This document shows, piece after piece, positions 27,268-54,598 of a DNA stretch of 64,000 nt. Under the pieces are notes generated by a model, which saw only the letters and a list, made by a program, of their open reading frames with translations, did not search any database and had not been told where the DNA came from. Both the position numbers and the translations under genes were made by a program. Origin of the DNA: Escherichia phage vB_EcoM_ESCO49. Each line of letters starts with the position of its first letter. The stretch's first letter is position 1. Location of the stretch: the sequence record OM386663.1, one strand, 5' to 3'.

Positions 27268-27963
27268 TCAATGTTTAACTAACATGGTTTTAATGTGTGG
27301 AAGGATTCTGTTTACCTTCTGCACATTCTTCTCTGTATCTTCTATAAAACATACTATATTAAAGTAAGGCAGAATGCAAGACTGAATCATCCTCACTTTC
27401 AAACTTTCTGCACTTATAGAGTTAGCCCCAAAACCACGCATAAAAAGCATGTAGTCATGCTCTATGTAATGCCTTAAAAACATCTCAGTAGGTATTCTCT
27501 GAGATTCACCCCTCGCTGTCAAGAGTCCAATGGCAGCATGGTTGGCAATTGCATCAATAATATTGAAAACATACGTTGGTTTTGCACTTACAGAGTCAAG
27601 CAAATTAGTGTACTGTGAAAATGAACCATCAATCAGTTCCGTTGAGCAATCTTCGTGATTAAAATTTGTAAGGACACCATCAATATCTGCTAAGATGAGG
27701 TTACCTTTTTCTACAAGGTCTTTATTGACTATGACTAAACTGTCACGTCTTACACCTATAGATTGCCCCGTCTCTTTATCCACAACGTTCACAATCGGTT
27801 CTGAAGTGTGGAACTCTTCAAGTGAACATACAACTTCTCTTGCAGTGTCTTCAAAATCCCTACACTGTTCTGGAGTCCATACACCGGAATCAAGACCTAA
27901 CTCATGAGGGTGTAAGTCATAAGCATGACACAGTACTTCATCAGACTTTCTTAATTTTTTCAT
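27268..27963 (-). CDS. HAD-superfamily phosphatase (possible 5'-deoxynucleotidase)
   Basis: 231 aa; HAD motif I ILADIDGVLTNF (DxDG). Confidence 0.5.
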   Translation of the reverse strand: MKKLRKSDEVLCHAYDLHPHELGLDSGVWTPEQCRDFEDTAREVVCSLEEFHTSEPIVNVVDKETGQSIGVRRDSLVIVNKDLVEKGNLILADIDGVLTNFNHEDCSTELIDGSFSQYTNLLDSVSAKPTYVFNIIDAIANHAAIGLLTARGESQRIPTEMFLRHYIEHDYMLFMRGFGANSISAESLKVRMIQSCILPYFNIVCFIEDTEKNVQKVNRILPHIKTMLVKH

Positions 27964-28489
27964 GGTTTACCTTAGAAATGTTTGTTGCAAATTCACATTG
28001 AGCAATAACTTTCATGTTGTTATAGACATCTTGAGAATATTTCTTAGCTTTAGGGATTCTGTACGAATACCCAGCATTATATGATGCTAAAACTTTTTGT
28101 AAAGTCTTCTTTGACTTTGGCTGACCATGCACCTTTGTCCAAAACTCAAGTTCTTTGTGCGTTTCCTTTGCAGCATAGTCAAAATCTTTTAAGAGTTTCT
28201 TTTTAGCCACATTAGGACTAATTTTGTTACGCTTTACAACAGTCTTCAAGTGATTCTGGAAAATACCATAGTCGTGGGTCTTTTTATTCTCTACCTTCAG
28301 ACCTAACTCTGACTCTTGTAAGGCTATAGCTGCTAGAGTAATACCCCAGCCTTTCCCCATATTATTCTCACCATACTGGTAAGCTTTTAACATGTTTACT
28401 TTTTGGCTAATTGATAGCTCTGGGCAGTCAACTGCATAAGATAAGTGTGCTGTAAACATTAAGCACAAACCTAGAATCAATTTCTTCAT
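27941..28489 (-). CDS. secreted lytic transglycosylase-like protein
   Basis: 182 aa; N-terminal signal peptide MKKLILGLCLMFTAHLSYA; ALQESELGL...YGIFQN resembles the SLT catalytic Glu and G(L/I)(M/F)Q motif. Confidence 0.45.
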   Translation of the reverse strand: MKKLILGLCLMFTAHLSYAVDCPELSISQKVNMLKAYQYGENNMGKGWGITLAAIALQESELGLKVENKKTHDYGIFQNHLKTVVKRNKISPNVAKKKLLKDFDYAAKETHKELEFWTKVHGQPKSKKTLQKVLASYNAGYSYRIPKAKKYSQDVYNNMKVIAQCEFATNISKVNHEKIKKV

Positions 28490-28589
28490 TGGTTCTCCTG
28501 TTTAGTTTATCGTGACAACAATTATACAGCACTCTGCACAAAATACAAATAAAAAAGGCCGCCGAAGCAGCCTTTTAAGAAATTACTTA

Positions 28590-29699
28590 TTAGATTTCAC
28601 GTTTACGTTGGGAGATAAGTTCTCCAGCAGTACCAACGATGACATGTAAAGCTTCAGTCTTGCCATCCCATGCTTTCAGCACTTTACGTTGATTATCAAC
28701 GATTGCTGCAACTTCATAACGAGACGAGCGCATCTTCATATCGTTGTAATCAGTTGGTACGGATACAACGTCTCGTGGATGGACACGAACCTTCAGAATT
28801 GTGTCACCTGAGAAGCAACGAACATAATCCCAAGCACCAACATGAAGACCTTGAGAGCAAGTCACGTTACGATTATTATCAACCATCCAACGTGGCATTT
28901 CTACAATGTTACCCAAATCATTAGGTACTCTGTGGGTGTGGGAGTCAACCAGCTTGCCTTCACGAGTAGATACTTTCTTCCAACCAATGATGTAGCCTTC
29001 TTCATCAATTTCAACATCAAGGTGAGATACAAAGCCCCAAAGTTGTTCTACAGAGTCTTTAGATGGGTTTTCCATCAGTTTTTCGAAGAACATCACGAGG
29101 CGTTCAAAACCTTTATCTCCAGTCTTCATCATGTGAAGAATACGGTCAACCAGAGTAGAACGCATCTCAACAGCACCGTAGAATAGCTTGTCACCTTTGA
29201 TTGTGATAGCGCCCTGAGTGAAGTTTTCGATAGACTTACGAATATTCATCAGTTCAAATGCTTTCTTGAACTCACCTTTCACAACATGAACTACAATCTC
29301 TTGATAGTTCGGATGAGTAGACTCAACAATTTCAGATTCTGAACCATAAGTCATAATTACAGAATCACCAGTAATCATGTACTCAATATTGTCATCTTTC
29401 TGCATAGCTTCATGCAGTTTATTTACCGGAGCTTTCTGTACAGACTCTTTAACGACCTTTTCAACTTGTTTGCCAGATTTCTTTTTAAAGGTCTTAGCAA
29501 CTTGCTTCAAAGTCTTCGTAGCTGGTGTAGAAGTCGCCTTCTTTTTCCCTTTTAAGGTTGCTTCATGACGCTCTACAGCACGACCAACTGAACGGGTTGA
29601 AGTATTAAATTTCTGTGCAATAGCTGTTTTAGTCAGCTTACCTTCTTTAACCAGTTTGTAAATTTCTGCGTCAATCTGTGCTTTAGTTTTAGTAGTCAT
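28590..29699 (-). CDS. rIIB: rIIB-like protein
   Basis: 369 aa; C-terminal region matches T4 rIIB as recalled (LFY...RSGLVDRIL, CSQGLHV, KVRVHPRDVVSVPTDYNDMKMR); lies directly downstream of the rIIA-like gene. Confidence 0.75.
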   Translation of the reverse strand: MTTKTKAQIDAEIYKLVKEGKLTKTAIAQKFNTSTRSVGRAVERHEATLKGKKKATSTPATKTLKQVAKTFKKKSGKQVEKVVKESVQKAPVNKLHEAMQKDDNIEYMITGDSVIMTYGSESEIVESTHPNYQEIVVHVVKGEFKKAFELMNIRKSIENFTQGAITIKGDKLFYGAVEMRSTLVDRILHMMKTGDKGFERLVMFFEKLMENPSKDSVEQLWGFVSHLDVEIDEEGYIIGWKKVSTREGKLVDSHTHRVPNDLGNIVEMPRWMVDNNRNVTCSQGLHVGAWDYVRCFSGDTILKVRVHPRDVVSVPTDYNDMKMRSSRYEVAAIVDNQRKVLKAWDGKTEALHVIVGTAGELISQRKREI

Positions 29700-29778
29700 C
29701 TTATTACTCTCTCTTGTTAGTTAATCAATCAATTTGTGAGGCTATTCTAAGGGGCTTTGAAGCCCCTTGTCAAACACT

Positions 29779-32145
29779 TTAATCGTAAATTGTTGTACCT
29801 TCTGGAACACATTTCACATTAAAGCCTAAAAACTTACTCACTTCGATAGGTGATACCTTATTCCAATCTAAGTGTGAAAGCAAGAAGTTTTCTTGTTTTC
29901 TTTTTGAAAGATAGTTTGTCAGCTTGATAACCATGCGGTCACCTGCTTTCTTAATCTTTTTGTACAGTTTTGTGTCATTATCAAGGCATGACTTCAAATC
30001 CTGAAGAACACTGATAGTGTAAGTGTATGCAAACGGTGCAGCCACATACTGAATCTTACCAAACATTGCCTCAACAGCATCTTCATTCCCTTCTAAGAAG
30101 ATTGTCTTAATAGTATCCCTTGAATAACAATACCCGCGAGAAATCTTCCTGTTATTGAACGTAAAGTTTCTGGCAATAATCCTACTGCTTGTAAGGTCGA
30201 GGACACCATCCATGTAGATGCGTGTCATATACCTGTTATGGTTAATCCAATGAACATCAGTTAAGCTGTCGTTCAAGAGCTTCTCATCTACTTCAATCCA
30301 GTCTTCTGGTATCTTTTTCCAATTTGCTTTTCGGAAAACATAGACTGTCTTACCTGTAACATTAGCAACTGACTTAGCTACATCCTCTGGAGATGAGCAA
30401 AAACATCTACCATCAACTGTGTCACCTACTGCCTTAATATAAAGCTGAGGCTCTTCAATTGTGTCTAAGTCTTCTGACACCTCTTTGTATGAAGCTTTAG
30501 TTTCTGCTGGAACAGCTTTCCAGAGTTTTACAACACCTCTTACAGCTTCTTTACGCTGATAGTGATGTTCCTTATCAGACATCTTCACAATCTTTAACAA
30601 GCTTTTATCAAGTTTGTGCAGATTGATTAAGTCATCTAGCTCTTTCTCTGTAGAGAATACAAAGACAATACCATTGTATCTGTGAAACAGATTTGACTCA
30701 CTGGCGTAGTCTCGACATGCACCACGCAAAATTTGATTGCGTCCTACAGTCTTCTCAGTACCGTTTTTATTGCGACGGTCATTAATCACGAACAAAAACT
30801 GTTCAATTTGGCTTTTACGCATTGCACCAAAGATATTGAACATGCTTGCCTCTTGAGTGTAGGAAAGTGCTGTTACACGAATCTTACTCTCTAAAGAGTT
30901 GAACTTGACATAAGCAACTGGGTCATAAAGATAATCTACTTTAGGGATATTGTTCCCGTTCCTATCAACCTTAATATTGCCTTTACCGTCACGTTCATAA
31001 ATGACTGAGCCGTCTTCTGCGTAGATAATTCCACGACGAATGTTTAACAATTCTTCTTCCAGAGAATCAAGCTTAACGCCTCCCCACTCTAGCTTTGGAC
31101 ACACAGCATTAAACATCTCTCGTGAGTTCAAACGTAACTCTGCATAAGCCTGTGCAGCATCCATGAGTGTAGGTTGGCTATTAACTTTCTTGATAACATC
31201 CTTTGTAATTGCTTCAGTTATCTTTTTGGTAGCCTCGATGATAACATTTTTTGTCGTATCATTCATCTGCAATGCTTCACGAGAAGCTGCTATAGCAACT
31301 GAACCAATAGGCATGTAGATGTTTACAAGGTCTACGCTCCTACGGAAAAACTCTGGCAAGACTTTGAAGAAATCATCACCAAGTAATGCTTCCATGTTCA
31401 CTGGATAGGCAATATTACCCATCACCACATTAAACTCTATCCTATTACCACTAGAACGCCAGCTTTGCTTATGAATCATGGCATCATAAACACCTTCTTC
31501 ACGGGCAATGACGTTCATATCTGCTAATACATCGTCGTACTCAATATTACTTTCTGGTTTTACAGCAAAGTATGAGTACACATTTCCAGCTTCTTCAAAG
31601 AACTTTGAGATACGGTGGTCAGCAACTGCCACACGTACAGCTAAACCATTAGGTTCTTTTGTTGGGTTAGTGGTCAGCTTAGTTACTTGAGGGATACCAT
31701 TCTCAAGATAAACAGAGTACTTATTAACAACACCATCAACATAGCTAGATACTGTGAATGACTGAGCAATTGCAAATGGGGATTTTGAGCCGATACCCAT
31801 TGCACCAATGTAGTCATTAGAGTCATTCTTCGTAGAAGCCCCGTAGTTTAGGTACAAACTCATAACTTTATCATGAGTCAATCCAGTTCCAAAATCACGA
31901 ACTTCAAAGTAAGGCTCAAAACGAGTAGGTAAATGCACATGGAACGGGATATTCTCTTTTCCAGCTTCTTTCTGAGCATCTACTGCATTGCATGACAGTT
32001 CACGAATCACTGCCCTTTCTTTAAATGTGTATACACCAGAACTCAGAAGGCTGAACATTTCAGGTGTCATTGTAATCTGTGCTTGAGATGTCTCCAAAGA
32101 AGTTGAACTCTTAATCACTTCTGCGTGGTCATTTACCATGCGCAT
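29779..32145 (-). CDS. rIIA: rIIA-like protein (GHKL/Bergerat-fold ATPase N-terminus)
   Basis: 788 aa; N-box ERAVIRELSCNAVDA, G1 box RDFGTGL and G2 NDYIGAMGIGSKSPF, as in T4 rIIA. Confidence 0.75.
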   Translation of the reverse strand: MRMVNDHAEVIKSSTSLETSQAQITMTPEMFSLLSSGVYTFKERAVIRELSCNAVDAQKEAGKENIPFHVHLPTRFEPYFEVRDFGTGLTHDKVMSLYLNYGASTKNDSNDYIGAMGIGSKSPFAIAQSFTVSSYVDGVVNKYSVYLENGIPQVTKLTTNPTKEPNGLAVRVAVADHRISKFFEEAGNVYSYFAVKPESNIEYDDVLADMNVIAREEGVYDAMIHKQSWRSSGNRIEFNVVMGNIAYPVNMEALLGDDFFKVLPEFFRRSVDLVNIYMPIGSVAIAASREALQMNDTTKNVIIEATKKITEAITKDVIKKVNSQPTLMDAAQAYAELRLNSREMFNAVCPKLEWGGVKLDSLEEELLNIRRGIIYAEDGSVIYERDGKGNIKVDRNGNNIPKVDYLYDPVAYVKFNSLESKIRVTALSYTQEASMFNIFGAMRKSQIEQFLFVINDRRNKNGTEKTVGRNQILRGACRDYASESNLFHRYNGIVFVFSTEKELDDLINLHKLDKSLLKIVKMSDKEHHYQRKEAVRGVVKLWKAVPAETKASYKEVSEDLDTIEEPQLYIKAVGDTVDGRCFCSSPEDVAKSVANVTGKTVYVFRKANWKKIPEDWIEVDEKLLNDSLTDVHWINHNRYMTRIYMDGVLDLTSSRIIARNFTFNNRKISRGYCYSRDTIKTIFLEGNEDAVEAMFGKIQYVAAPFAYTYTISVLQDLKSCLDNDTKLYKKIKKAGDRMVIKLTNYLSKRKQENFLLSHLDWNKVSPIEVSKFLGFNVKCVPEGTTIYD

Positions 32146-32331
32146 AATACTTTCCTCTTAGTTTACTGTTAAATTACTTATTAAACATTCTACCAGAACC
32201 ACCACACATAGGGCAACAACCTGCTCTTGTATAACCTTCTCCATTACAGTAGTAACATCTCTTGTGCTCTGCATAGTACTTGCAAAGAAGGTAAACAAAA
32301 ACTGCTACACTACCAAGTGACAGTAAAATTT

Positions 32332-32667
32332 CTATCCAATATGCTTGCATGACTCACCTCTCATATTTTTGTAAAGGATAAAGCTTCTGTCATGGACGAT
32401 ACTTGTAGATACTGCAAAGTTACTTTCAAGCATCTGTTTGTTTGGATTGTAGAAGCTTTCTTTAAACTCGTCAAGCGCAAATTGGTGATGTTGTGGAAGA
32501 CCTTTTACACAGATTTTTATTGTGATTGCTGCTGCAATCTTGCCAGTCAGTTCTTCTTTAGCTGCTACTAAAATTTTGTTAAGAAACTTTTCACCATCTT
32601 CAGGTTTTTTAATGTTTTCCCAACGTTCTTCTAGGACAATGTTAATGTTCAACTCTTTGATTTTCAT
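32332..32667 (-). CDS. hypothetical protein
   Basis: 111-aa ORF. Confidence 0.45.
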   Translation of the reverse strand: MKIKELNINIVLEERWENIKKPEDGEKFLNKILVAAKEELTGKIAAAITIKICVKGLPQHHQFALDEFKESFYNPNKQMLESNFAVSTSIVHDRSFILYKNMRGESCKHIG

Positions 32668-32683
32668 AGTCTTCTCCAGAAAT

Positions 32684-32710
32684 TAAAAAGGCTCCCGTAG
32701 GAGCCTCTTA
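32684..32710 (-). terminator. rho-independent terminator downstream of the NAMPT-like gene
   Basis: Hairpin AGGCTCC-CGTA-GGAGCCT; U-run follows on the minus strand (plus AAAAA 32684-32688). Confidence 0.5.
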
Positions 32711-32720
32711 TCATATACTT

Positions 32721-34502
32721 TTAAAGCTGCTTGTCAATAATATTTCGAATATCACCAAGAGTTGTGTAACCGAACTGCTCAGAGTCGCTAAAGACTAAAC
32801 GTAAAGCACAAGCTGGGTGGTCAAGTACGTCTGCAAAACTCTGGAATCCATAGCCATCTACAGCTTTCAGCTTATCACCATCCCACATAGGTGCTACACC
32901 ACCAAAGGCAGACTTCTTAACACCACTATCTGTTTTAGGGTCTTTTGCAAGCATAATCTCTTTACCACCAATGCTTGCAAGAGTTGCTTTGACAGCAAAT
33001 GCAAAGGTGTCACGAGTCATGTACTGGTAAGTGTAAGAGCCTACACCAAATACTACGTTAGAGCTTGCAAAACCCATTTCATACAGACGATTCAGGATTT
33101 CGTTTGCACGTTCCAGCGTGATAGAGTCACCATAGATAAGGCCGATGTGCTCATCCAGTACCTTAAACCCTTTAGAGTTAATAGTTCCCCCAAAGATGTT
33201 GTACAGTGTCTTAATAGCTCCATCAATTTCAGCTACAGGACGTGTTACAACATTTGCAGAACCAACCATATAAGCATTCTTCAACATCACCGTATCAGCA
33301 ACTTCAAAGTCTTCTCTGTCAACAACCATTTCGTAGCCTTCTGACAGTAGCCATCCAGCAATACCATAGTCGATGTTTTCAAGCTTCATGTTCAGAACAG
33401 CATTCAACATTGTGTCGCTGGCTTCCAGCTTGCTTAGGTGCTCGTAATAAGCCTTCTTAGCACATTCTAAGTGGATTGCTTTATAACCTGTGACAATATG
33501 TACAGGGTCTCCAGAGTCAGGACGAATTACCAGTTTGCCATCACGTTCCATAATTTCTTTACGAAGTGCTGGTAAAATTTCTGACACAGCTCTCCAGAAG
33601 TTATAAGTGTCTGAAACAATACTTGCAATACCAGTTGGGTAAGTTTCTGTTAAGAAACGACGGAAGGTTTGCAACTCACCTTTAAATCGTCTTTCTTCTT
33701 CAACCAACTCGTTACCACCTTCCCAAGCAATGTTTGCACACATTACAGAGTGTTCAGTGGCTGGTACAGAGCTTCCAATATCAGAGATTGGATAGGTCTG
33801 CCCATAGATACGTTTAGCCGTGTATACAGCAGGGAAGCTATCAGTCCCTTTAAAGCTGGTTAAGTGGCCTACAGCATTGAATGCGTCATCAGTAAAGCCT
33901 GACATACCACGCATAGCAAAGTCATGGCACTGATAAGGTAAATGCAAGTCATTGTCGCAAGTAAGGTCAGCCCACTTCTTACAGATACGTTTGTAGTGTA
34001 ATGCAATAGTAGCAATGGTGCAAGCTTTCCAAATCTCAGCAGAGAAAGCATCCTCCAGATACCCTGCTACCCAATGGAAACCTGAAACAGTGTTCTGGAA
34101 GACAATCATTGGGACACGCATCGGGACAACTGTGCCTTCTTCTACAGCGTATACTTCAACCGGTAGATAACCTAAGTCGTGAAGTGCTTCCCAATGCTCT
34201 CGACCGATAGCATCTTTACCCAGAACACCATTCATGACTTCTAAGATTTCGTCAACTGCTTCTTTTTTATCACGTTCAAAGAAAGTGGCGTTCCAGTGGT
34301 CTATTAAGTAATCTTTAACAAAACGTTGAATACCAAAAGCCACTACACCATCAATTGCTAAGGGGCTGTTAAACCATTTATCACTACGTGGTGTCAGGTT
34401 GAACATCAAGTATTCTGTTGCACTAGGGTACTGGTAAACATGACCAGATTTGTAAGCATCTGCGTTTAAACCTGCTGGTACTGCATAAAGTGATTTAGTC
34501 AT
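32721..34502 (-). CDS. nicotinamide phosphoribosyltransferase-family protein (NadV or Namat-like)
   Basis: 593 aa; NAMPT-like N-terminus (DAYKSGHVYQYP) and full NAMPT length; directly downstream of a Prs-like gene. Confidence 0.7.
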   Translation of the reverse strand: MTKSLYAVPAGLNADAYKSGHVYQYPSATEYLMFNLTPRSDKWFNSPLAIDGVVAFGIQRFVKDYLIDHWNATFFERDKKEAVDEILEVMNGVLGKDAIGREHWEALHDLGYLPVEVYAVEEGTVVPMRVPMIVFQNTVSGFHWVAGYLEDAFSAEIWKACTIATIALHYKRICKKWADLTCDNDLHLPYQCHDFAMRGMSGFTDDAFNAVGHLTSFKGTDSFPAVYTAKRIYGQTYPISDIGSSVPATEHSVMCANIAWEGGNELVEEERRFKGELQTFRRFLTETYPTGIASIVSDTYNFWRAVSEILPALRKEIMERDGKLVIRPDSGDPVHIVTGYKAIHLECAKKAYYEHLSKLEASDTMLNAVLNMKLENIDYGIAGWLLSEGYEMVVDREDFEVADTVMLKNAYMVGSANVVTRPVAEIDGAIKTLYNIFGGTINSKGFKVLDEHIGLIYGDSITLERANEILNRLYEMGFASSNVVFGVGSYTYQYMTRDTFAFAVKATLASIGGKEIMLAKDPKTDSGVKKSAFGGVAPMWDGDKLKAVDGYGFQSFADVLDHPACALRLVFSDSEQFGYTTLGDIRNIIDKQL

Positions 34503-34547
34503 CTTTTAATCTCTCTCAAAATGGGGTTTTTAAGCCCCTATAAAGTT

Positions 34548-35453
34548 TTAATCAAGGTTTGCTACAGTAACTTGACCATAATGTGTTAAGCCACGGTCTT
34601 TAGCTTCCCCTAAAGAGTTTGTAGTGTAGATATGGTCAATGCCATTGTCAAGAAGGTTTTCAACATCTTTAGAGAAGATACCATGTGTTACATAAAGTTC
34701 CACACGTTTTGCACCTGCTTCACGAAGATGTTTCGCTGCTTCTATGAAGGTTCGACCACCATCACAAATATCATCAAGAATCATGACAGTTTTATCTGTC
34801 AAATCAACATCATCAAGGATTCGCATACCAGTTATTTCACCAGTCTTAAGGTTGCGTACTTTAGACATTGTGATATATGGTTTATCCACCTCTTTAGCAG
34901 TCTCTGCAATCTTCTTAGAAGCACCTGCATCTGGGGCTACTAAGTAATCAATCAGAGGGTCATTTGCATAGTGGACTGCAATCTCCTTTTGAGGAATACT
35001 TTGGAAGCAGTTGAAAAGGTTATCTGGAACGTAACTATGAGGGTCAACTGCACAGACTGCATCAAAACCCATTGCATTAACCTGTTGTGCAAACACTTTC
35101 AAAGCTGCTGCATCACCTTTAAACATGTGACGGTCGTAACGTGCATTTGGCAAATAGTAAAAGATAGCAGTCTTCATAGCAAACTTATGAGGTACTAAAT
35201 CATCAATTGCTTCTTTAGCAAGTGCCACAGCAAACAATGTGTCCTTGTCATAGCCTTTTACAATAATAACCACATTGTTGATGGATGATGCTGCATAAGC
35301 AGTAAAATCAACAAGCTCTTGTGAAAAGTGTCCACCAATCTCACCAGAAGGGAACTGGATGATGTTAAACTCTTCTTCATGAGACCCTTTTGTCGGTGAA
35401 TGAATTATAACACGAATCGATGTCTTCATAGTTTTCCCTCTCTTTATTCCCAA
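34548..35453 (-). CDS. ribose-phosphate pyrophosphokinase (Prs)-family protein (possible ADP-ribose pyrophosphokinase, Adps-like)
   Basis: 301 aa; phosphoribosyltransferase binding loop VMILDDICDGGRTF; Prs-like two-domain length. Confidence 0.65.
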   Translation of the reverse strand: MGIKRGKTMKTSIRVIIHSPTKGSHEEEFNIIQFPSGEIGGHFSQELVDFTAYAASSINNVVIIVKGYDKDTLFAVALAKEAIDDLVPHKFAMKTAIFYYLPNARYDRHMFKGDAAALKVFAQQVNAMGFDAVCAVDPHSYVPDNLFNCFQSIPQKEIAVHYANDPLIDYLVAPDAGASKKIAETAKEVDKPYITMSKVRNLKTGEITGMRILDDVDLTDKTVMILDDICDGGRTFIEAAKHLREAGAKRVELYVTHGIFSKDVENLLDNGIDHIYTTNSLGEAKDRGLTHYGQVTVANLD

Positions 35454-35851
35454 ATAACCTTTCTACGCTTTATCTGGATAATGTTCTTTTTACAATATTC
35501 GATAGCTTCATCTATTGACCCAAAACTTTCCTTCTCCACAAAGAAGCGAACTTCACCATCTTGTATCTTTTGTTCTTCGGCTGTTGGCTCTTCAAGTATT
35601 TTACTTGATACTTCTCTGTTAATCTGCATTACATACTCGAAAGAGTTCTTCTTGTACCCAACTATTTTAATGTAACCCCTCTGGCGAAGACGATTGAACC
35701 GAGTTGACTTGTTTGTCTTGGATACATCTGGAAATTCCTTGTCATGGATACTACGTATCTGTGAGCAAGTAAATGTTTTATCATAACCAAACTCATTATA
35801 CAGGACTTTTAACAGTTCAATCATAACATCACTCCCAAATAACTTTTGCAT
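35444..35851 (-). CDS. paralogue A2 of a four-gene winged-helix-like family
   Basis: Track ORF 35444..35896 trimmed to MQKLFGSDVMIELLKVLYNEFGYDKTF, matching paralogue 36315..36737; shared C-terminal motif EAIEYCKKNIIQIKRRKVIWE. Confidence 0.5.
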   Translation of the reverse strand: MQKLFGSDVMIELLKVLYNEFGYDKTFTCSQIRSIHDKEFPDVSKTNKSTRFNRLRQRGYIKIVGYKKNSFEYVMQINREVSSKILEEPTAEEQKIQDGEVRFFVEKESFGSIDEAIEYCKKNIIQIKRRKVIWE

Positions 35852-36293
35852 GTTTAACTTTAATAAGATGCTCTTTGCAGTGCTCAATAGCTTCATCTAG
35901 TGTTTTAAACATAACATCCGCGATAAAGTATCTTACGTCAGGTTGTACATCAACATCTTTAACCTCAGATAAGTTTGATTTTTGTGAACTCCCCAACTCT
36001 TCACGCGTGTTATTTAGCATCCTTGACAGTTGTATGTGCTTCTCCATAAAGGCTCGATTTAATTGATTAATACTTAGTCTACCTTTGCTTTTTACCTGCC
36101 CTACAGTCAGCAGTACACCAGACTGTCTTAACATTGTTAGATACCCACGGGTATTACTGATTGACTGGCCTCGTATAAAAAGGCTATTCTCTCTTAATGC
36201 GTCAATTGCTTCGTTAGAGTCAAAAGTGTTTTCTGTCCCGAAGGTTTTGTATAAAATCTCTATTACGTGCTTCTGTAAATTGCAAAAAATCAT
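35829..36293 (-). CDS. paralogue B2 of the same family
   Basis: MIFCNLQKHVIEILYKTFGTENTFDSNEAIDAL... matches 36715..37167; C-terminus EAIEHCKEHLIKVKHAKVIWE. Confidence 0.5.
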   Translation of the reverse strand: MIFCNLQKHVIEILYKTFGTENTFDSNEAIDALRENSLFIRGQSISNTRGYLTMLRQSGVLLTVGQVKSKGRLSINQLNRAFMEKHIQLSRMLNNTREELGSSQKSNLSEVKDVDVQPDVRYFIADVMFKTLDEAIEHCKEHLIKVKHAKVIWE

Positions 36294-36314
36294 AGTGTAT
36301 TCCTAATCAAATGT

Positions 36315-36737
36315 TTAAACTTCTTCCCAAACAATACGCTTTCTTTTTGTTTGGATAACCGTTCTCTTACAATGCTCAACTGCTGCCTCCATACTGGTAA
36401 AGTGTATGTCACCTATGAAGTATCCTACTTCACCTACACTAACCTCTTCATCCTTTTGTTGATGGCCATTACAATTTAGAAGCACATTTTTAGCTTTGCT
36501 TTCATTGATTCTCATAAGATACTCATTATTAAATCCTGTCGCTCCAACAACACTAATGTACCCACTTTTACGTAATCTGTGAGACCAATTAGCTTTATCC
36601 CTGATTGAAGCATGTGGTAGATATTTATTAAAAACCTTAGTTAGTTGTGAGCCAGAAAATGTTTTATCATAGCCAAAATTTATATACAGAACCTTCAGAA
36701 GCTCAAACATGTTATTACTCCCAAATAATTTTTGCAC
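36315..36737 (-). CDS. paralogue A1
   Basis: MQKLFGSNNMFELLKVLYINFGYDKTF...; C-terminus EAAVEHCKRTVIQTKRKRIVWEEV. Confidence 0.5.
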   Translation of the reverse strand: MQKLFGSNNMFELLKVLYINFGYDKTFSGSQLTKVFNKYLPHASIRDKANWSHRLRKSGYISVVGATGFNNEYLMRINESKAKNVLLNCNGHQQKDEEVSVGEVGYFIGDIHFTSMEAAVEHCKRTVIQTKRKRIVWEEV

Positions 36738-37167
36738 GTTTTACTTTGATAATATACTTTTTGCAGTGTTCAACAGCATCTTGGAGTGTATCAAACATCA
36801 ACTCACCAATAAAGAATTTTATGTCTGGAGACACACCTACACCACTTAAGTCTTTTTGCTGCTCTTCACGTTGGTTTCGTGGCTCTTTAAGTAAATAGTC
36901 TAGCTGAATGTGCTTCTCAATAAAACCTCTATTTAATTGGTTGATGAGCATCCTCCCTTGTTGCTTAATCTGTCCTACCACGATGAGCACACCCCACTTT
37001 CTCATCTGAGTCAAGTAGTACCTGATGTTTGCTATTGGCTGTTTTTTGATGTAATCACTTCCTTCTTGTAGGGCTTCAATAGCTTCATTTGAGTCAAATG
37101 TGTTATCTGTCCCAAACTTATTGTATAGAATCTCAATAATTCTTTTTTGGAAGCTGCAAAAAATCAT
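36715..37167 (-). CDS. paralogue B1
   Basis: MIFCSFQKRIIEILYNKFGTDNTFDSNEAIEAL...; C-terminus DAVEHCKKYIIKVKRAKIIWE. Confidence 0.5.
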   Translation of the reverse strand: MIFCSFQKRIIEILYNKFGTDNTFDSNEAIEALQEGSDYIKKQPIANIRYYLTQMRKWGVLIVVGQIKQQGRMLINQLNRGFIEKHIQLDYLLKEPRNQREEQQKDLSGVGVSPDIKFFIGELMFDTLQDAVEHCKKYIIKVKRAKIIWE

Positions 37168-37176
37168 AATTTTCTC

Positions 37177-37455
37177 TCAATCAAAAGTTACGTTTGTTAC
37201 TGCCATTGCAGATTTGCATTTTACAGGGTCTACAACGTGATAAAGTACACTACAGTTACCTGTGCTGTCTGGTACAGGCTTTACCCATTGCTGCTTTATA
37301 GTTGGTTCTCCTAAGTCTTTGTAAGAGCCGTCTGTAAAATTGTTTACCATCTCAAGTGCAATTGGTTCTGGGACATGACCACGTATCATGTACATTTCAC
37401 AACCATTACCACCATCGCTGACTAGTGGTAAAATCTCCCACTTTTCTTTAGCCAT
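37177..37455 (-). CDS. hypothetical protein
   Basis: 92-aa ORF. Confidence 0.4.
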   Translation of the reverse strand: MAKEKWEILPLVSDGGNGCEMYMIRGHVPEPIALEMVNNFTDGSYKDLGEPTIKQQWVKPVPDSTGNCSVLYHVVDPVKCKSAMAVTNVTFD

Positions 37456-37963
37456 TGTAAGTCGCCCTATAAACTGTCTCGAACTTCAACAGGAGAGATA
37501 TTGCCAAATCTGTATAGTTGTTGTCAAGCACATCTGGCATATTATTTTTGATATATTTCTCTTGCTCTTCATAGGTCATCTTAGGAGTGCTTAGAAGGTT
37601 ATCTCCTTGCTTCTGGTTATCAAGTTTAGTCTGGATAAACCAGTTTGCACAGTGATGCTCACCACCCTTTGTAACAGGTTTGTGGTGGCCTAATGTGAAG
37701 GATTGACTACCTGTGTATCTGCAAAGTTTATTGAGTACTGTAATGGTGTTCTTCACAACAAAACATTCATACAGGTTGTCTATGGTGTAGTGTGGGTAGT
37801 AGCGGAATAGTGCTCTTTCACGAGTGCTATCACGATTCCAGAGAATCATGTGATTAGAGTTTGAAGGGTCATATTGGTGGGAGTCAATGAACTCTTGGCG
37901 TTCCTCAAAGCTGAGTCTTAACACTGACATTGCAGCAGAACGTTTCAGGTTTGACAGGTACAT
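37448..37963 (-). CDS. putative HNH-type endonuclease
   Basis: 171 aa; GHHKPVTKGGEHHCANWFIQTKLDNQKQG resembles an HNH core (His-His ... Asn ... His). Weak call. Confidence 0.35.
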   Translation of the reverse strand: MYLSNLKRSAAMSVLRLSFEERQEFIDSHQYDPSNSNHMILWNRDSTRERALFRYYPHYTIDNLYECFVVKNTITVLNKLCRYTGSQSFTLGHHKPVTKGGEHHCANWFIQTKLDNQKQGDNLLSTPKMTYEEQEKYIKNNMPDVLDNNYTDLAISLLLKFETVYRATYNG

Positions 37964-49868: not shown

Positions 49869-50162
49869 TCATGATATTCTCCGATATACTTGATATTCAA
49901 ACACGTTTTCTTTCATTATAAACAGCCAGCTAATGTTATGCTGATGCAGCGCAATGACGACTGTAATCATGTTCTGGTGGAAATCTTCTTTTGCCTCAAC
50001 TTCCCCATCGCATTTCATGAGGAGCATTCTATAGAACCTATCAAGCTTTGTCAAACACTCTTCCTGAAATTTATTTAAACTTTTTTCTTCAAAGAAGGGT
50101 GTGAACCCCTCTCTTTTATAACTATCACTCAGTTTCGAATGGGCAGTCATCTGCATCCTCAC
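49869..50162 (-). CDS. hypothetical protein
   Basis: 97-aa ORF. Confidence 0.4.
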   Translation of the reverse strand: MRMQMTAHSKLSDSYKREGFTPFFEEKSLNKFQEECLTKLDRFYRMLLMKCDGEVEAKEDFHQNMITVVIALHQHNISWLFIMKENVFEYQVYRRIS

Positions 50163-52116
50163 TTAATACAGGTGGAATCGTTGAGCTTTGACGCTGCTCT
50201 TCAGTATAGACTTCACCAGTATCACGGTCAAACACTTCATCCTCATAATGTGGCAGAGAGTCATCGTAATGGTCTTCAGCTTCACCAATACCAAACTGTT
50301 GGCGAATATTCTCTGCTGCACCATCAATGTCAACTCCACAACCAGATGCTTTGATAAGACGCCCTGTATCTGGATTGTACCAAGTATGACCAGCAATACC
50401 AGTTGACTTACCGTGACGACGACACTTAGTTAACTTGATTTTTGTCAAGTTTTTCTTAACAGGGTCTGGGTCAACCTTGTTACGCATTAACAGAATGTTG
50501 TTCATAGAAATCTGGAAATACGCACCAGAGCCTTTAATATCCTCTTCAGAGATATCTCCACCTTCAGAGTTAGCCTTCTGACCACCTGCACTCTTACGAA
50601 CGTGACAGACGTTTACCTGTGCATACTGGTAGCGTTTGCAACGACGCAATAGCTCAGATAAAACTTCCTCTTCATCCGTATCTGAACGTGACAGAGCCAA
50701 CGTAATAGGGTCAAGAATAATAATCTTACAGTCTAAGCTGTTAACAAGATAGTCAACAAACTCCAGCAAGTTATCTTGGTCAATTGCCCCTTGATGGTCT
50801 ACGATGTGGATACGACGACCTTTAGATAGTTCTGCGTGTGCTTCCTTCAATTCATCCCAATCACGTTCGTCATAAGGAATCTCAGAAATCTGCTTACTCA
50901 GGTGGATTGCACAGAGCATCTCCATCAACTCTTCATAGGTATCTTCTACAGGAATTACACCAATGTTGTAATCGGTATCTTTCCAAGCAGTATAAATCAT
51001 TTCACGAGTGTATGCAGATTTACCCACTGAAGATGGTGCTGCCAGAGTTGTAATCTCACCTAAACCATAACCACCATAAGTCAGCCTGTTCAAATCTCCG
51101 AAAGACTCTGGGAAAGGAATCAATGGAATCTGACCACGATTCTTCATTGCCTCAAAACCATCTGCAAAGTTCTTGATACCAGCAGGACAGTAACGAGGTG
51201 CATTGTAGATACGCTGCTTAAACCCTTCCAGAACTGTATCTTTCTCTTTATAGAACTTTGTCCACCACTCGTTAAGGTCTTTTACACCTTCTGGATACTG
51301 GAATAAACGAACCTTCTCAATAGGTAGGATACCAGCAGCCTCTTTAGTGGCTTTAGCACCTGCTTCATCGTTATCAAAGCACAAGTAAATCTCATCAAAT
51401 GATGTGATGTACTGATAGTTATCCTTGATAGACTTGATGTTTGCACCTGATGGAACAGATACGTGACAGTAATTCTTACGACGAGACTTGTCCTTAATCG
51501 CAAGAGAAGTCATATAGATTGCTGTCGCACATTCCATCTCACCTTCCCAGATGAATAGACGGTTACCACCTTCTGGAGCAATCCATGAACCGAACATTGC
51601 CAGTTCACCTTTAATGTCTCCAACACCACCTGAGAAGTCTTTTAGCTTACCGCGTAGGTGCTCTTTTGGATGGTCTTCTGGATAACGATGACGTACACGG
51701 TAACCGACGTGCTCTAGCTTACCATCTTCATTACGTTTGTAAGTTGGATAGAAATGCGCATCAATTTCACCATCACTGTCAATGTCAACCTTGATACCTA
51801 AGCGTTCAAGGACTTTTGCAGGAATCTTCCTGTCTTTCAAGTCCATTGCTTCAAGGTTTTCTTTCACATCGTCTAAATCCATTCCACGGAAAGTACGGTT
51901 TTTATTGTCTGAACCAGTAGAATAAGTGCTCACGATTTGTCCTTTATCAAAATCCCACTCTGGGAAACCTTTGTTACAACTAAAGCAAGTCATCGAATAA
52001 GAATCATCGTCATGATGATAGATTGAACCAGCATCTGATGAACCACAACGTGGACATGCACAATGACCAATAAACTGACCAGCCTCTTTCAATTTACGAC
52101 CTTTAGACATTAGCAC
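50125..52116 (-). CDS. bifunctional DNA primase/helicase (T7 gp4-like)
   Basis: 663 aa; N-terminal Zn-ribbon CPRCGSS...CFSCNKG, TOPRIM-like middle region, C-terminal DnaB-type Walker A AAPSSVGKSAY. Confidence 0.75.
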   Translation of the reverse strand: MLMSKGRKLKEAGQFIGHCACPRCGSSDAGSIYHHDDDSYSMTCFSCNKGFPEWDFDKGQIVSTYSTGSDNKNRTFRGMDLDDVKENLEAMDLKDRKIPAKVLERLGIKVDIDSDGEIDAHFYPTYKRNEDGKLEHVGYRVRHRYPEDHPKEHLRGKLKDFSGGVGDIKGELAMFGSWIAPEGGNRLFIWEGEMECATAIYMTSLAIKDKSRRKNYCHVSVPSGANIKSIKDNYQYITSFDEIYLCFDNDEAGAKATKEAAGILPIEKVRLFQYPEGVKDLNEWWTKFYKEKDTVLEGFKQRIYNAPRYCPAGIKNFADGFEAMKNRGQIPLIPFPESFGDLNRLTYGGYGLGEITTLAAPSSVGKSAYTREMIYTAWKDTDYNIGVIPVEDTYEELMEMLCAIHLSKQISEIPYDERDWDELKEAHAELSKGRRIHIVDHQGAIDQDNLLEFVDYLVNSLDCKIIILDPITLALSRSDTDEEEVLSELLRRCKRYQYAQVNVCHVRKSAGGQKANSEGGDISEEDIKGSGAYFQISMNNILLMRNKVDPDPVKKNLTKIKLTKCRRHGKSTGIAGHTWYNPDTGRLIKASGCGVDIDGAAENIRQQFGIGEAEDHYDDSLPHYEDEVFDRDTGEVYTEEQRQSSTIPPVLSEDADDCPFETE

Positions 52117-54341: not shown

Positions 54342-54598
54342 GTAAGCCTCTTTTAAGTAACTATTAAGTTTTAATCTTTTATCTTAACGTATTCTATACG
54401 TTATACTTTAAAGCTTTTTAAAAGCTATTAAATAATCTTTTAAGAGTTTTAAAGTATCTGTATAGTTAAACTGTTAAGTAACCTTTTAAGTAAAAACCCA
54501 CTTCGCAAAGATTAACACCTTGTCAAGTACATTGTCAACTTGCTTTTTATAATTTTTTGCAGTAATGTATGAGGTTAATGATTGTAGAGGGAGTAAAA

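What the first reader, a model, noticed from the sequence alone, without database searches (positions are those of the whole stretch)
28590..32145. rIIA/rIIB pair in a genome with T7-type primase-helicase and family A polymerase
The rIIB C-terminus and the rIIA GHKL N-terminus are clearly recognisable. rII genes are classically tied to T4-like phages and protect against prophage-encoded exclusion, whereas the replication genes here are T7/T5-like, so the genome is mosaic. The pair lies just upstream of the NAD module, so this stretch may be a contiguous anti-exclusion region.
Basis: partly seen in the sequence, partly recalled or inferred. Interest (0 to 1): 0.4.

Follow-up and report, generated by a model that had tools for sequence, protein, structure and literature searches.

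The report
Known rIIA/rIIB pair of Felix-O1-like phage
The two genes are true rIIA and rIIB counter-defence genes, but they are the standard, already annotated and partly tested pair of Felix-O1-like coliphages, so the finding is correct and ordinary.

Summary
29779..32145(-) encodes a 788-aa rIIA and 28590..29699(-) a 369-aa rIIB, exactly at the stated coordinates.

The window is a Felixounavirus genome, 96-98% identical in DNA to E. coli O157 typing phages, wV8 and ESCO50, where both genes are already annotated. The 2010 Felix O1 genome paper already described rIIAB beside a T7/SP6-like family A polymerase, a gp4-like primase-helicase, and the Prs and NAPRTase genes.

rIIB homologues occur in about 2,900 of 50,697 phage records from many families. 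The order Adps-Namat-small ORFs-rIIA-rIIB is kept across Ounavirinae. "Mosaic with T4" is therefore not supported.

The "anti-exclusion region" idea is partly right:
- The NAD module is NARP1, discovered in Bas63; the window's proteins are 79% and 98% identical to it.
- Deleting Bas63 rIIA or rIIB (97% and 82% identical) lowers plating 10^4-10^5-fold on QatABCD.
- Knock-down of SUSP1 rII (63% and 80% identical) sensitises that phage to lambda RexAB.

A predicted terminator and promoter separate NARP1 from the rII unit, and rII lies downstream of it.

Models add two points. rIIA resembles Hsp90-type GHKL ATPases. rIIB is a sigma-region-4-like HTH plus a domain with no solved relative.

Novelty: already known. 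Interest: low.

The parts
29779..32145 (-). rIIA, 788 aa. N-terminal GHKL (Bergerat) ATP-binding domain with Hsp90-like overall predicted architecture, followed by a lineage-variable C-terminal half.
   Evidence: PHROG 612, E 8e-189, full length. 32% identical to T4 rIIA over 306 aa. 97% to Bas63 gp84, 63% to SUSP1 rIIA. E49/N53/D56, D84/G86 and G114/G117/G119 invariant, G88 nearly invariant (at least 90%), in 51 homologues. AF2 model pLDDT 86. Foldseek best hits TRAP1/Hsp90/HtpG/GRP94, E 2.6e-16. No predicted TM segment.
28590..29699 (-). rIIB, 369 aa. N-terminal helix-turn-helix (about residues 6-52), Lys-rich disordered linker (about 55-90), then a conserved rIIB domain (about 100-369).
28553..28576 (-). 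Intrinsic-terminator-like hairpin followed by a T run, 14 nt after the rIIB stop. Predicted end of the rII transcription unit.
   Evidence: 10-bp stem, 5 G-C pairs, tail TTATTTGTAT.
29744..29773 (-). Sigma-70-like promoter match (TTGACA-18-TAGAAT) in the 79-nt rIIA-rIIB spacer. A small GGGGCT/AGCCCC hairpin sits inside the spacer.
   Evidence: 11 of 12 match; sequence read. Consensus match only. The number of promoter-like sites in the region equals the chance expectation.
32174..32350 (-). 58-aa ORF directly upstream of rIIA. One predicted TM helix plus two CxxCxGxG (DnaJ-type zinc-finger) motifs.
   Evidence: PHROG 3931. KD19 maximum 2.11. Motifs CYYCNGEG and CPMCGGSG. Orthologues in the same position in Bas63, Maleficent, SUSP1 and Wc4. 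Sub-threshold DnaJ_CXXCXGXG hits in all four orthologues scanned (window, Maleficent, Wc4, SUSP1). T4 rIIA.1 is unrelated.
32332..32667 (-). 111-aa ORF of unknown function, first gene of the predicted rII transcription unit.
   Evidence: PHROG 4262, E 8e-67. 94% identical to bas63_0082.
32686..32737 (-). Promoter-like site (TTGACA-16-TATGAT, 32737..32710) followed by a terminator-like hairpin (32709..32686), just after the Namat stop. Predicted boundary between NARP1 and the rII unit.
   Evidence: 11 of 12 promoter match; 10-bp stem with 5 G-C pairs.
32721..34502 (-). Namat, the nicotinamide ADP-ribose transferase of NARP1 (annotated as nicotinamide phosphoribosyltransferase).
   Evidence: PF04095, E 5e-35. 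PHROG 448. 98.3% identical to Bas63 gp80, whose pathway is described in the Osterman et al. preprint.
34548..35429 (-). Adps, the ADP-ribose pyrophosphokinase of NARP1 (annotated as ribose-phosphate pyrophosphokinase). The likely start is the ATG at 35429, not the TTG at 35453.
   Evidence: PF00156 and PF14572. PHROG 619. 79% identical to Bas63 gp79 from residue 9 of the longest ORF.
50125..52116 (-). Context: fused primase-helicase of T7 gp4 type.
   Evidence: Toprim_2 plus DnaB_C in one protein.
54569..57298 (+). Context: family A DNA polymerase.
   Evidence: PF00476 DNA_pol_A, E 2e-15.

Best explanation
The interval holds the orthologous rIIA-rIIB pair of a Felixounavirus (subfamily Ounavirinae). 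It is an accessory counter-defence module that is dispensable on naive hosts. The phage needs it to grow on cells carrying certain abortive-infection systems, namely lambda RexAB and QatABCD.

Shown here from sequence and models:
- rIIA is a soluble protein of about 90 kDa. Its N-terminal GHKL ATP-binding site is intact, and its overall predicted architecture resembles Hsp90-type clamp ATPases.
- rIIB is a basic 42-kDa protein. It has a sigma-region-4-like HTH, a Lys-rich flexible linker and a conserved C-terminal domain with no solved relative.
- The two genes sit in one predicted unit: promoter, orf111, orf58 (membrane-anchored CxxCxGxG miniprotein), rIIA, possible internal promoter, rIIB, terminator.

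Shown by others in close relatives:
- Deleting either gene of Bas63 drops plating 10^4-10^5-fold on QatABCD.
- Knock-down in SUSP1 sensitises that phage to RexAB.

Inferred mechanism. rIIA and rIIB act together, since both are needed, as an ATP-driven complex at the inner face of the membrane. The complex prevents the defence effector from being triggered or from collapsing the membrane potential, so the infection is not aborted. The direct target and the role of ATP hydrolysis are not known.
For: Identity of the genes:
- PHROG 612 and 609, E 8e-189 and 5e-89.
- BLASTP to T4 rIIA and rIIB, E 2e-36 and 1e-60.
- 96-98% DNA identity to annotated Felixounavirus genomes.

Orthology to tested genes:
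- 97.3% and 82.3% identical to Bas63 gp84 and gp85.
- 63% and 80% identical to SUSP1 rIIA and rIIB.

Function in relatives:
- PhageMaP preprint PMC11482910: deletion of g84 or g85 gives a 10^4-10^5 EOP loss on qatABCD, restored by complementation.
- CRISPRi-ART, PMC11879866: rII knock-down in T4, MM02, EdH4, SUSP1 and N4 lowers EOP only on RexAB hosts.
- HIDEN-SEQ preprint: T4 rIIA and rIIB insertions are depleted on RexAB.

ATPase site: E49, N53, D56, D84, G86, G114, G117 and G119 are invariant, and G88 nearly invariant, in 51 diverse homologues. Foldseek hits to Hsp90/TRAP1/HtpG reach E 2.6e-16 over about 590-700 alignment columns.

Transcription-unit signals.
Against: - No experiment exists on this phage.
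- rIIB here differs by 17% from the Bas63 protein that was tested.
- The biochemical mechanism of rII is unknown even in T4 (stated).
- Neither protein has a predicted membrane segment, so membrane association is taken from T4 literature and from my own knowledge, not shown here.
- Pfam GHKL models score below threshold on this sequence itself (HATPase_c, E 0.071).
- Foldseek TM-scores to Hsp90 are low (0.3-0.5) because the domain arrangement differs, so 'Hsp90-like' applies to the folds and not to a proven clamp cycle.
- The promoter scan is no better than chance overall: 25 sites found against 24.4 expected.
Confidence: 0.85

Rival explanations
1. rIIB is mainly a DNA-binding transcription factor that tunes phage or host transcription according to host state, as proposed for jumbo-phage rIIB orthologues. 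Rex or Qat sensitivity of mutants would then be an indirect effect of mis-timed expression.
Against: rII is dispensable without the defence system in five phages. rIIB alone triggers a gasdermin system and is toxic, which fits a direct cellular effect as well as a transcriptional one. rIIA, an ATPase with no DNA-binding signature, is equally required. No binding site is known.
Confidence: 0.2
2. The pair is a recent horizontal acquisition from a T4-like phage into a T7/T5-like replication background.
For: rII was discovered in T4. The replication genes here are PolA and a gp4-like primase-helicase.
Against: - Only 28% (rIIA) and 40% (rIIB) global identity to T4.
- Same gene order in four Ounavirinae lineages.
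- Divergence scales with genus distance.
- GC of the interval, 0.38-0.40, is the same as the rest of the window.
- rIIB homologues occur in about 2,900 phage records of many families.
- The same architecture was reported for Felix O1 in 2010.
Confidence: 0.03
3. The genes are 'lysis inhibitors' in the literal sense of the database name. On this reading they delay holin-mediated lysis as part of the phage's own lysis-timing control.
For: GenBank and PHROG name them 'RIIA/RIIB lysis inhibitor'. Spanin genes lie about 2 kb downstream.
Against: The name is historical, from the rapid-lysis plaque type of T4 r mutants. Knock-down or deletion has no plating phenotype on hosts without RexAB or Qat. 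The pair is separated from the spanin by a terminator and other genes. The statement that true lysis inhibition in T4 needs rI and rIII rests on my own knowledge.
Confidence: 0.05

Closest known systems
Bas63 (Escherichia phage JohannRWettstein, Felixounavirus) gp84 rIIA and gp85 rIIB
   Same: Same genus, gene order and lengths (788 aa, and 368 versus 369 aa). rIIA is 97.3% identical. The flanking genes are 94-99% identical. This pair was experimentally shown to counter QatABCD.
   Different: rIIB is only 82-83% identical. That is as far apart as the alleles of other genera. The window also lacks bas63_0081 and carries an extra 1.75-kb four-paralogue cassette upstream of Adps.
T4 rIIA and rIIB (Straboviridae), the prototype that counters lambda RexAB
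   Same: Same two-gene arrangement and order on one strand. rIIA has the GHKL N-terminal region (32% identity over 306 aa). rIIB has the HTH plus the conserved C-terminal domain (43% over 215 aa).
   Different: The C-terminal half of rIIA is not alignable by BLASTP. rIIB here has a Lys-rich linker of about 50 aa and a C-terminal extension of about 30 aa. T4 rIIA.1 is unrelated to the TM/CxxCxGxG ORF found upstream of rIIA in Ounavirinae. The replication module also differs: PolB and gp41/gp61 in T4 (my own knowledge) against PolA and a gp4-like enzyme here.
SUSP1 (Suspvirus, Ounavirinae) rIIA and rIIB
   Same: Same subfamily and same synteny: Prs, Namat, small ORFs, rIIA, rIIB, orf182, Pnk. 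Knock-down sensitises the phage to RexAB.
   Different: 63% (rIIA) and 80% (rIIB) identity. In SUSP1 an HNH endonuclease gene lies between Adps and Namat.
Hsp90-family GHKL ATPases (TRAP1, HtpG, GRP94)
   Same: They are the best structural matches of the rIIA model (Foldseek E 2.6e-16 to 1e-11, about 590-700 alignment columns). The Bergerat-fold motifs are conserved.
   Different: Sequence identity is 10-14% and TM-scores are 0.3-0.5. There is no sequence-level hit to any PDB chain. The C-terminal part differs. No chaperone activity is known for rIIA.

Membership tests
rIIA (phage GHKL-type rII protein) | Full-length similarity to the rIIA family, not only to ATPase motifs | tested here: met
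   PHROG 612, E 8e-189, residues 1-771 on profile positions 1-717 of 725. 32% identity to T4 rIIA over 306 aa.
rIIA (phage GHKL-type rII protein) | Intact GHKL/Bergerat ATP-binding motifs: N box ExxxNxxD, G1 DxGxG, G2 GxxGxG | tested here: met
   E49, N53, D56, D84, G86, G114, G117 and G119 are invariant, and G88 nearly invariant (at least 90%), in 51 homologues. Structure match to Hsp90-type ATPases at E 2.6e-16. Caveat: Pfam HATPase_c on this sequence alone is sub-threshold (E 0.071), although homologues carry precomputed PF13589.
rIIA (phage GHKL-type rII protein) | Encoded next to rIIB on the same strand, with rIIA first | tested here: met
   A 79-nt spacer separates the two genes, both on the minus strand.
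rIIB | Conserved rIIB C-terminal domain | tested here: met
   43% identity to T4 rIIB residues 102-312, E 1e-60. PHROG 609/3803/36818. Homologues carry precomputed PF26926. F204, G235, K241, V273, C281, G284, H286 and P308 are invariant in 47 homologues.
rIIB | N-terminal helix-turn-helix | tested here: met
rII counter-defence function (anti-RexAB, anti-QatABCD) | Conditionally essential on hosts carrying the defence system, dispensable otherwise | not testable with these tools
   Shown for Bas63 (97% and 82% identical) on QatABCD. Shown for SUSP1 (63% and 80%) and T4 on RexAB. Not tested for this phage.
NARP1 (Adps + Namat NAD+ reconstitution pathway) | Adjacent Prs-like Adps and Nampt-like Namat genes orthologous to Bas63 g79-80 | tested here: met
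   79.2% and 98.3% identity to Bas63 gp79 and gp80, same order. The pathway is described in the preprint 10.1101/2024.02.11.579819. Enzyme activity was not tested here.
Felixounavirus / Ounavirinae genome | Near-identity and synteny with classified members | tested here: met
   96-98% DNA identity over 28590..35453 to TP1, ESCO50 and wV8. 174 records cover at least 80% of that stretch. Annotated synteny.
T7 gp4-type primase-helicase / family A polymerase (context claim) | Toprim and DnaB-like helicase domains in one polypeptide; DNA_pol_A domain | tested here: met
   Toprim_2 (E 1.5e-9) and DnaB_C (E 3.7e-8) in 50125..52116. PF00476 (E 2e-15) in 54569..57298.

The most novel reading that the evidence does not exclude
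In Ounavirinae the rII module may have three parts. An Hsp90-like clamp ATPase (rIIA) and an HTH-bearing partner (rIIB) would work with the invariably adjacent membrane-anchored miniprotein carrying two DnaJ-type CxxCxGxG zinc-finger motifs (32174..32350). Together they would form a membrane-tethered, chaperone-like machine that holds pore-forming or depolarising abortive-infection effectors inactive. Deep allelic variation of rIIB within one genus (82-83% identity, against 97% for rIIA) would then reflect an arms race with systems that sense rIIB, such as CARD-gasdermin.
Probability: 0.08. Interest if true: 0.55.

Novelty: already known. Interest (0 to 1): 0.12.

Why it matters
For the scan it matters mainly as a calibration case.

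The biologically useful points are modest:
- The stretch 28590..37963 of this phage gathers homologues of three counter-defence functions tested in Bas63: rII against Qat or Rex, NARP1 against NAD+-depleting systems, and g77 against retron Ec67. This could help predict the host range of therapeutic or typing Felixounaviruses.
- The models give a concrete structural hypothesis for the still unknown rII mechanism. rIIA is Hsp90-like. rIIB is a sigma-region-4-like HTH plus a domain with no solved relative.

Tried and rejected
- Sequence search of both proteins against all PDB chains. Nothing for rIIA; only noise (E above 0.5) for rIIB.
- Pfam on rIIA. No hit at E 0.01 or better, and only HATPase_c at E 0.071 on the N-terminal 324 aa. 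GHKL membership therefore rests on invariant motifs, precomputed hits in homologues, and the fold search.
- Literature search for rIIA plus Hsp90. It returned only unrelated Fc-receptor papers.
- Whether T4 rIIA.1 is the counterpart of the small TM/zinc-finger ORF upstream of rIIA. It is not: no Cys and no TM segment.
- 'Mosaic, acquired from T4'. Rejected on the identity matrix and synteny.
- 'One contiguous operon with the NAD module'. Rejected as a single unit because of the predicted terminator and promoter at 32686..32737. These are consensus predictions only.
- The PhageMaP preprint says Bas63 gp84 and gp85 share more than 80% homology with T4 rIIA and rIIB. My alignments give 28-29% and 39-40%, so that figure should not be reused.
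Full report
**What is there**

The interval 28590..32145 is filled exactly by two minus-strand ORFs. One runs 29779..32145 (788 aa) and the other 28590..29699 (369 aa). They are separated by 79 nt.

The 788-aa protein:
- It matches the PHROG family 'RIIA' over its whole length (phrog_612, E 8e-189, residues 1-771 on profile positions 1-717 of 725).
- It is 32% identical to T4 rIIA over the first 306 residues (E 2e-36).

The 369-aa protein:
- It matches the rIIB part of phrog_609 (E 5e-89).
- It is 43% identical to T4 rIIB residues 102-312 (E 1e-60).
- In a four-way alignment the N-terminal helix-turn-helix of T4 rIIB also lines up with it.

**Where the window comes from**

- The interval is 97.7-97.8% identical in DNA to E. 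coli O157 typing phages 1, 8, 12 and 15, to SP22 and to wV8. It is 95-97% identical to many other Felixounavirus genomes, and 210 records cover at least 80% of it.
- Extending the query to the NAD module (28590..35453) gives 97.5% identity to vB_EcoM_ESCO50, and 174 records cover at least 80% of it.
- In RefSeq record NC_041979 the two genes are annotated 'RIIA lysis inhibitor' and 'RIIB lysis inhibitor'.
[quoted passage not shown] In the same paper it described a PolA most similar to the polymerases of the podoviruses PaP3, SP6, K1E, K1-5 and T7, a gp4-type primase/helicase, PRPP synthetase and nicotinate phosphoribosyltransferase (PMC3185647).

Every element of the finding is therefore already in the literature and in hundreds of database records.

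**The context claims**

- 50125..52116(-) carries Toprim_2 and DnaB_C in one polypeptide.
- 54569..57298(+) carries DNA_pol_A.
- 32721..34502(-) is a NAPRTase/NAMPT-family protein.
- The next ORF (34548..35453 as the longest ORF) is a Prs-like protein. Its likely start is the ATG at 35429, by alignment with Bas63.

All of these genes except the polymerase are on the minus strand. The rII pair is therefore transcriptionally downstream of the NAD module, not upstream.

**Is the genome 'mosaic'?**

I tested this in three ways.

1. Breadth of the family. A tblastn search with rIIB finds homologues in about 2,900 of 50,697 phage records. They include T4-like phages, Ounavirinae, phages of about 137 kb (rV5-like), about 157 kb (Vi1-like) and about 72-75 kb (N4-like), Streptomyces and Rhodococcus phages, Caulobacter CcrPW, and Rhizobium and Aerococcus phages. 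The BASEL and CRISPRi-ART papers make the same point.

2. Synteny. The order Adps, Namat, small ORFs, rIIA, rIIB, orf182, Pnk is the same in four lineages:
   - Bas63, Felixounavirus
   - Maleficent, Mooglevirus
   - SUSP1, Suspvirus
   - Pectobacterium phage Wc4, an unassigned Ounavirinae member. Here I inferred gene order from gene sizes and tblastn.

3. Divergence (global identity to the window):

| Gene | Within genus | Suspvirus / Mooglevirus | Wc4 | T4 |
|---|---|---|---|---|
| rIIA | 97-99% | 63% | 43% | 28% |
| rIIB | 83-97% | 83% | 51% | 40% |

For comparison, PolA and the primase-helicase are 92% identical in Maleficent and 67-68% in Wc4.

The pair is thus an old, vertically kept and fast-evolving part of the subfamily, not a recent T4 import. 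GC content of the interval matches the rest of the window.

**Is it an 'anti-exclusion region'?**

Partly.

- The NAD module is NARP1. The pathway was discovered in the Felixounavirus Bas63 (genes 79-80). Adps pyrophosphorylates ADP-ribose, and Namat joins the product to nicotinamide to rebuild NAD+. This overcomes SIR2-HerA and other NAD+-depleting systems (preprint 10.1101/2024.02.11.579819).
- The window's proteins are 79.2% (Adps) and 98.3% (Namat) identical to Bas63's.
- In the PhageMaP preprint, deleting Bas63 g84 (rIIA) or g85 (rIIB) lowered plating 10^4-10^5-fold on QatABCD, and complementation restored it. In the same preprint g77 countered retron Ec67 (PMC11482910).
- The window's rIIA and rIIB are 97.3% and 82.3% identical to those proteins, and a 98.8%-identical g77 homologue lies at 37448..37963.
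- CRISPRi-ART showed that knock-down of rIIA or rIIB in SUSP1, an Ounavirinae phage, lowers EOP only on RexAB hosts (PMC11879866). The window's proteins are 63% and 80% identical to SUSP1's.

So about 9.4 kb (28590..37963) does gather counter-defence genes. It is not predicted to be one unit:
- A 10-bp G+C-rich hairpin with a T tail (32709..32686) and an 11/12 promoter-like site (32737..32710) lie right after Namat.
- Another strong terminator-like hairpin follows rIIB (28576..28553).
- An 11/12 promoter-like site sits in the rIIA-rIIB spacer.

These are consensus matches. The count of promoter-like sites equals the chance expectation.

**How the proteins look**

rIIA:
- In an alignment of rIIA with 50 diverse homologues, E49, N53, D56 (N box), D84, G86 (G1 box) and G114, G117, G119 (G2 box) are invariant. 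G88 of the G1 box is nearly invariant (at least 90%).
- Many homologues carry precomputed PF13589. Pfam is sub-threshold on this sequence itself.
- An AlphaFold2 model (mean pLDDT 86) finds Hsp90-family ATPases (TRAP1, GRP94, HtpG, Hsp90) as its best PDB matches. Foldseek E is 2.6e-16, over about 590-700 alignment columns.
- TM-scores are only 0.3-0.5 and identity is 10-14%.
- The resemblance therefore goes beyond the ATP-binding domain, but it does not prove an Hsp90-like cycle.

rIIB:
- The model also has pLDDT 86.
- Residues 55-89 are a disordered, Lys-rich linker (28% Lys over residues 51-100).
- Residues from about 100 to 369 are confidently folded but have no solved relative.

Neither protein has a predicted membrane segment.

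**Mechanism**

What is shown, in relatives, is genetic. Both genes are needed, and only when RexAB or QatABCD is present.

What I infer is this. rIIA and rIIB work as one ATP-dependent complex that keeps the defence effector from being triggered, or from collapsing the membrane potential. The direct target is unknown even for T4.

The main rival is that rIIB is a transcription factor (Iyer et al. 2021). The conserved HTH keeps this idea alive, and it is not exclusive with the main explanation.

rIIB also has a cost. T6 rIIB alone triggers CARD-gasdermin systems and is toxic.

**Things seen on the way**

1. Directly upstream of rIIA in every Ounavirinae genome examined lies an ORF of about 52-59 aa. 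It has one TM helix and two CxxCxGxG motifs. T4 rIIA.1 is unrelated.
2. rIIB and Adps have deep alleles within the genus (82-83% and 79% to Bas63), while their partners rIIA and Namat are 97-98% identical.
3. The window carries a 1.75-kb cassette of four paralogous ORFs (phrog_29478) between the g78 homologue and Adps. It is present in only 10 phage records.
4. The window lacks bas63_0081.

**Verdict**

The finding is already known, and its interest is low.

Noticed in passing
window 35444..37167 (-): A 1.75-kb cassette of four tandem paralogous ORFs (150, 154, 140 and 150 aa). All match phrog_29478 'unknown function' and none has a Pfam hit above threshold. It is inserted between the bas63_0078 homologue and Adps. 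It is absent from Bas63 and TP1 and present in only 10 phage records (ESCO50 99.8%, finno 99.2%, JN01, SP3, RPN213 and others). It is a variable accessory insert inside the counter-defence neighbourhood.
   Followed up: partly
window 32174..32350 (-); orthologues at L007:18176-18352, L008:2472-2651, L010:16883-17041, L012:4643-4822: A 58-aa ORF directly upstream of rIIA, with one predicted TM helix and two DnaJ-type CxxCxGxG motifs (CYYCNGEG, CPMCGGSG). Its position and motifs are conserved in Felixounavirus, Mooglevirus, Suspvirus and Wc4, although sequence identity falls to about 42-47%. Sequence search finds it only in Ounavirinae. T4 rIIA.1 is unrelated. It may be a third partner of the rII module.
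   Followed up: partly
window 28590..29699 (rIIB) and 34548..35429 (Adps): Within the genus Felixounavirus, rIIB and Adps have deep allelic lineages: 82-83% and 79% identity between the window and Bas63. That is as far apart as between genera. Their functional partners rIIA and Namat and the flanking genes are 94-99% identical. In the 90%-identity protein clusters, rIIA of the genus forms one cluster (1,411 members), while rIIB splits into seven or more clusters at 78-97%. This suggests diversifying selection or allele exchange at one member of each pair.
   Followed up: partly
window 32668..32720: The window lacks the 115-aa gene bas63_0081 (gp078 in TP1) that lies between Namat and orf111 in those phages. 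Here only 53 nt remain, holding the terminator-like and promoter-like signals.
   Followed up: no
window 37448..37963 (-): A 171-aa protein 98.8% identical to Bas63 gp77, which the PhageMaP preprint reports as a counter of retron Ec67 and describes as carrying a GIY-YIG domain. Here it gave only phrog_3500 (unknown function) and a weak HNH-endonuclease PHROG hit. No GIY-YIG Pfam hit appeared at E 0.1 or better.
   Followed up: partly
window 27941..28489 (-): A 182-aa ORF just downstream of the rIIB terminator has an N-terminal signal- or lipoprotein-like hydrophobic segment and a sub-threshold SLT (lytic transglycosylase) Pfam hit (E 9e-4). It matches phrog_600, is conserved in all Ounavirinae compared, and overlaps the start of the polynucleotide kinase gene.
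   Followed up: no
literature, PMC11482910: The PhageMaP preprint states that Bas63 gp84 and gp85 share more than 80% sequence homology with T4 RIIA and RIIB. Direct alignment gives 29% and 39% global identity.
   Followed up: yes
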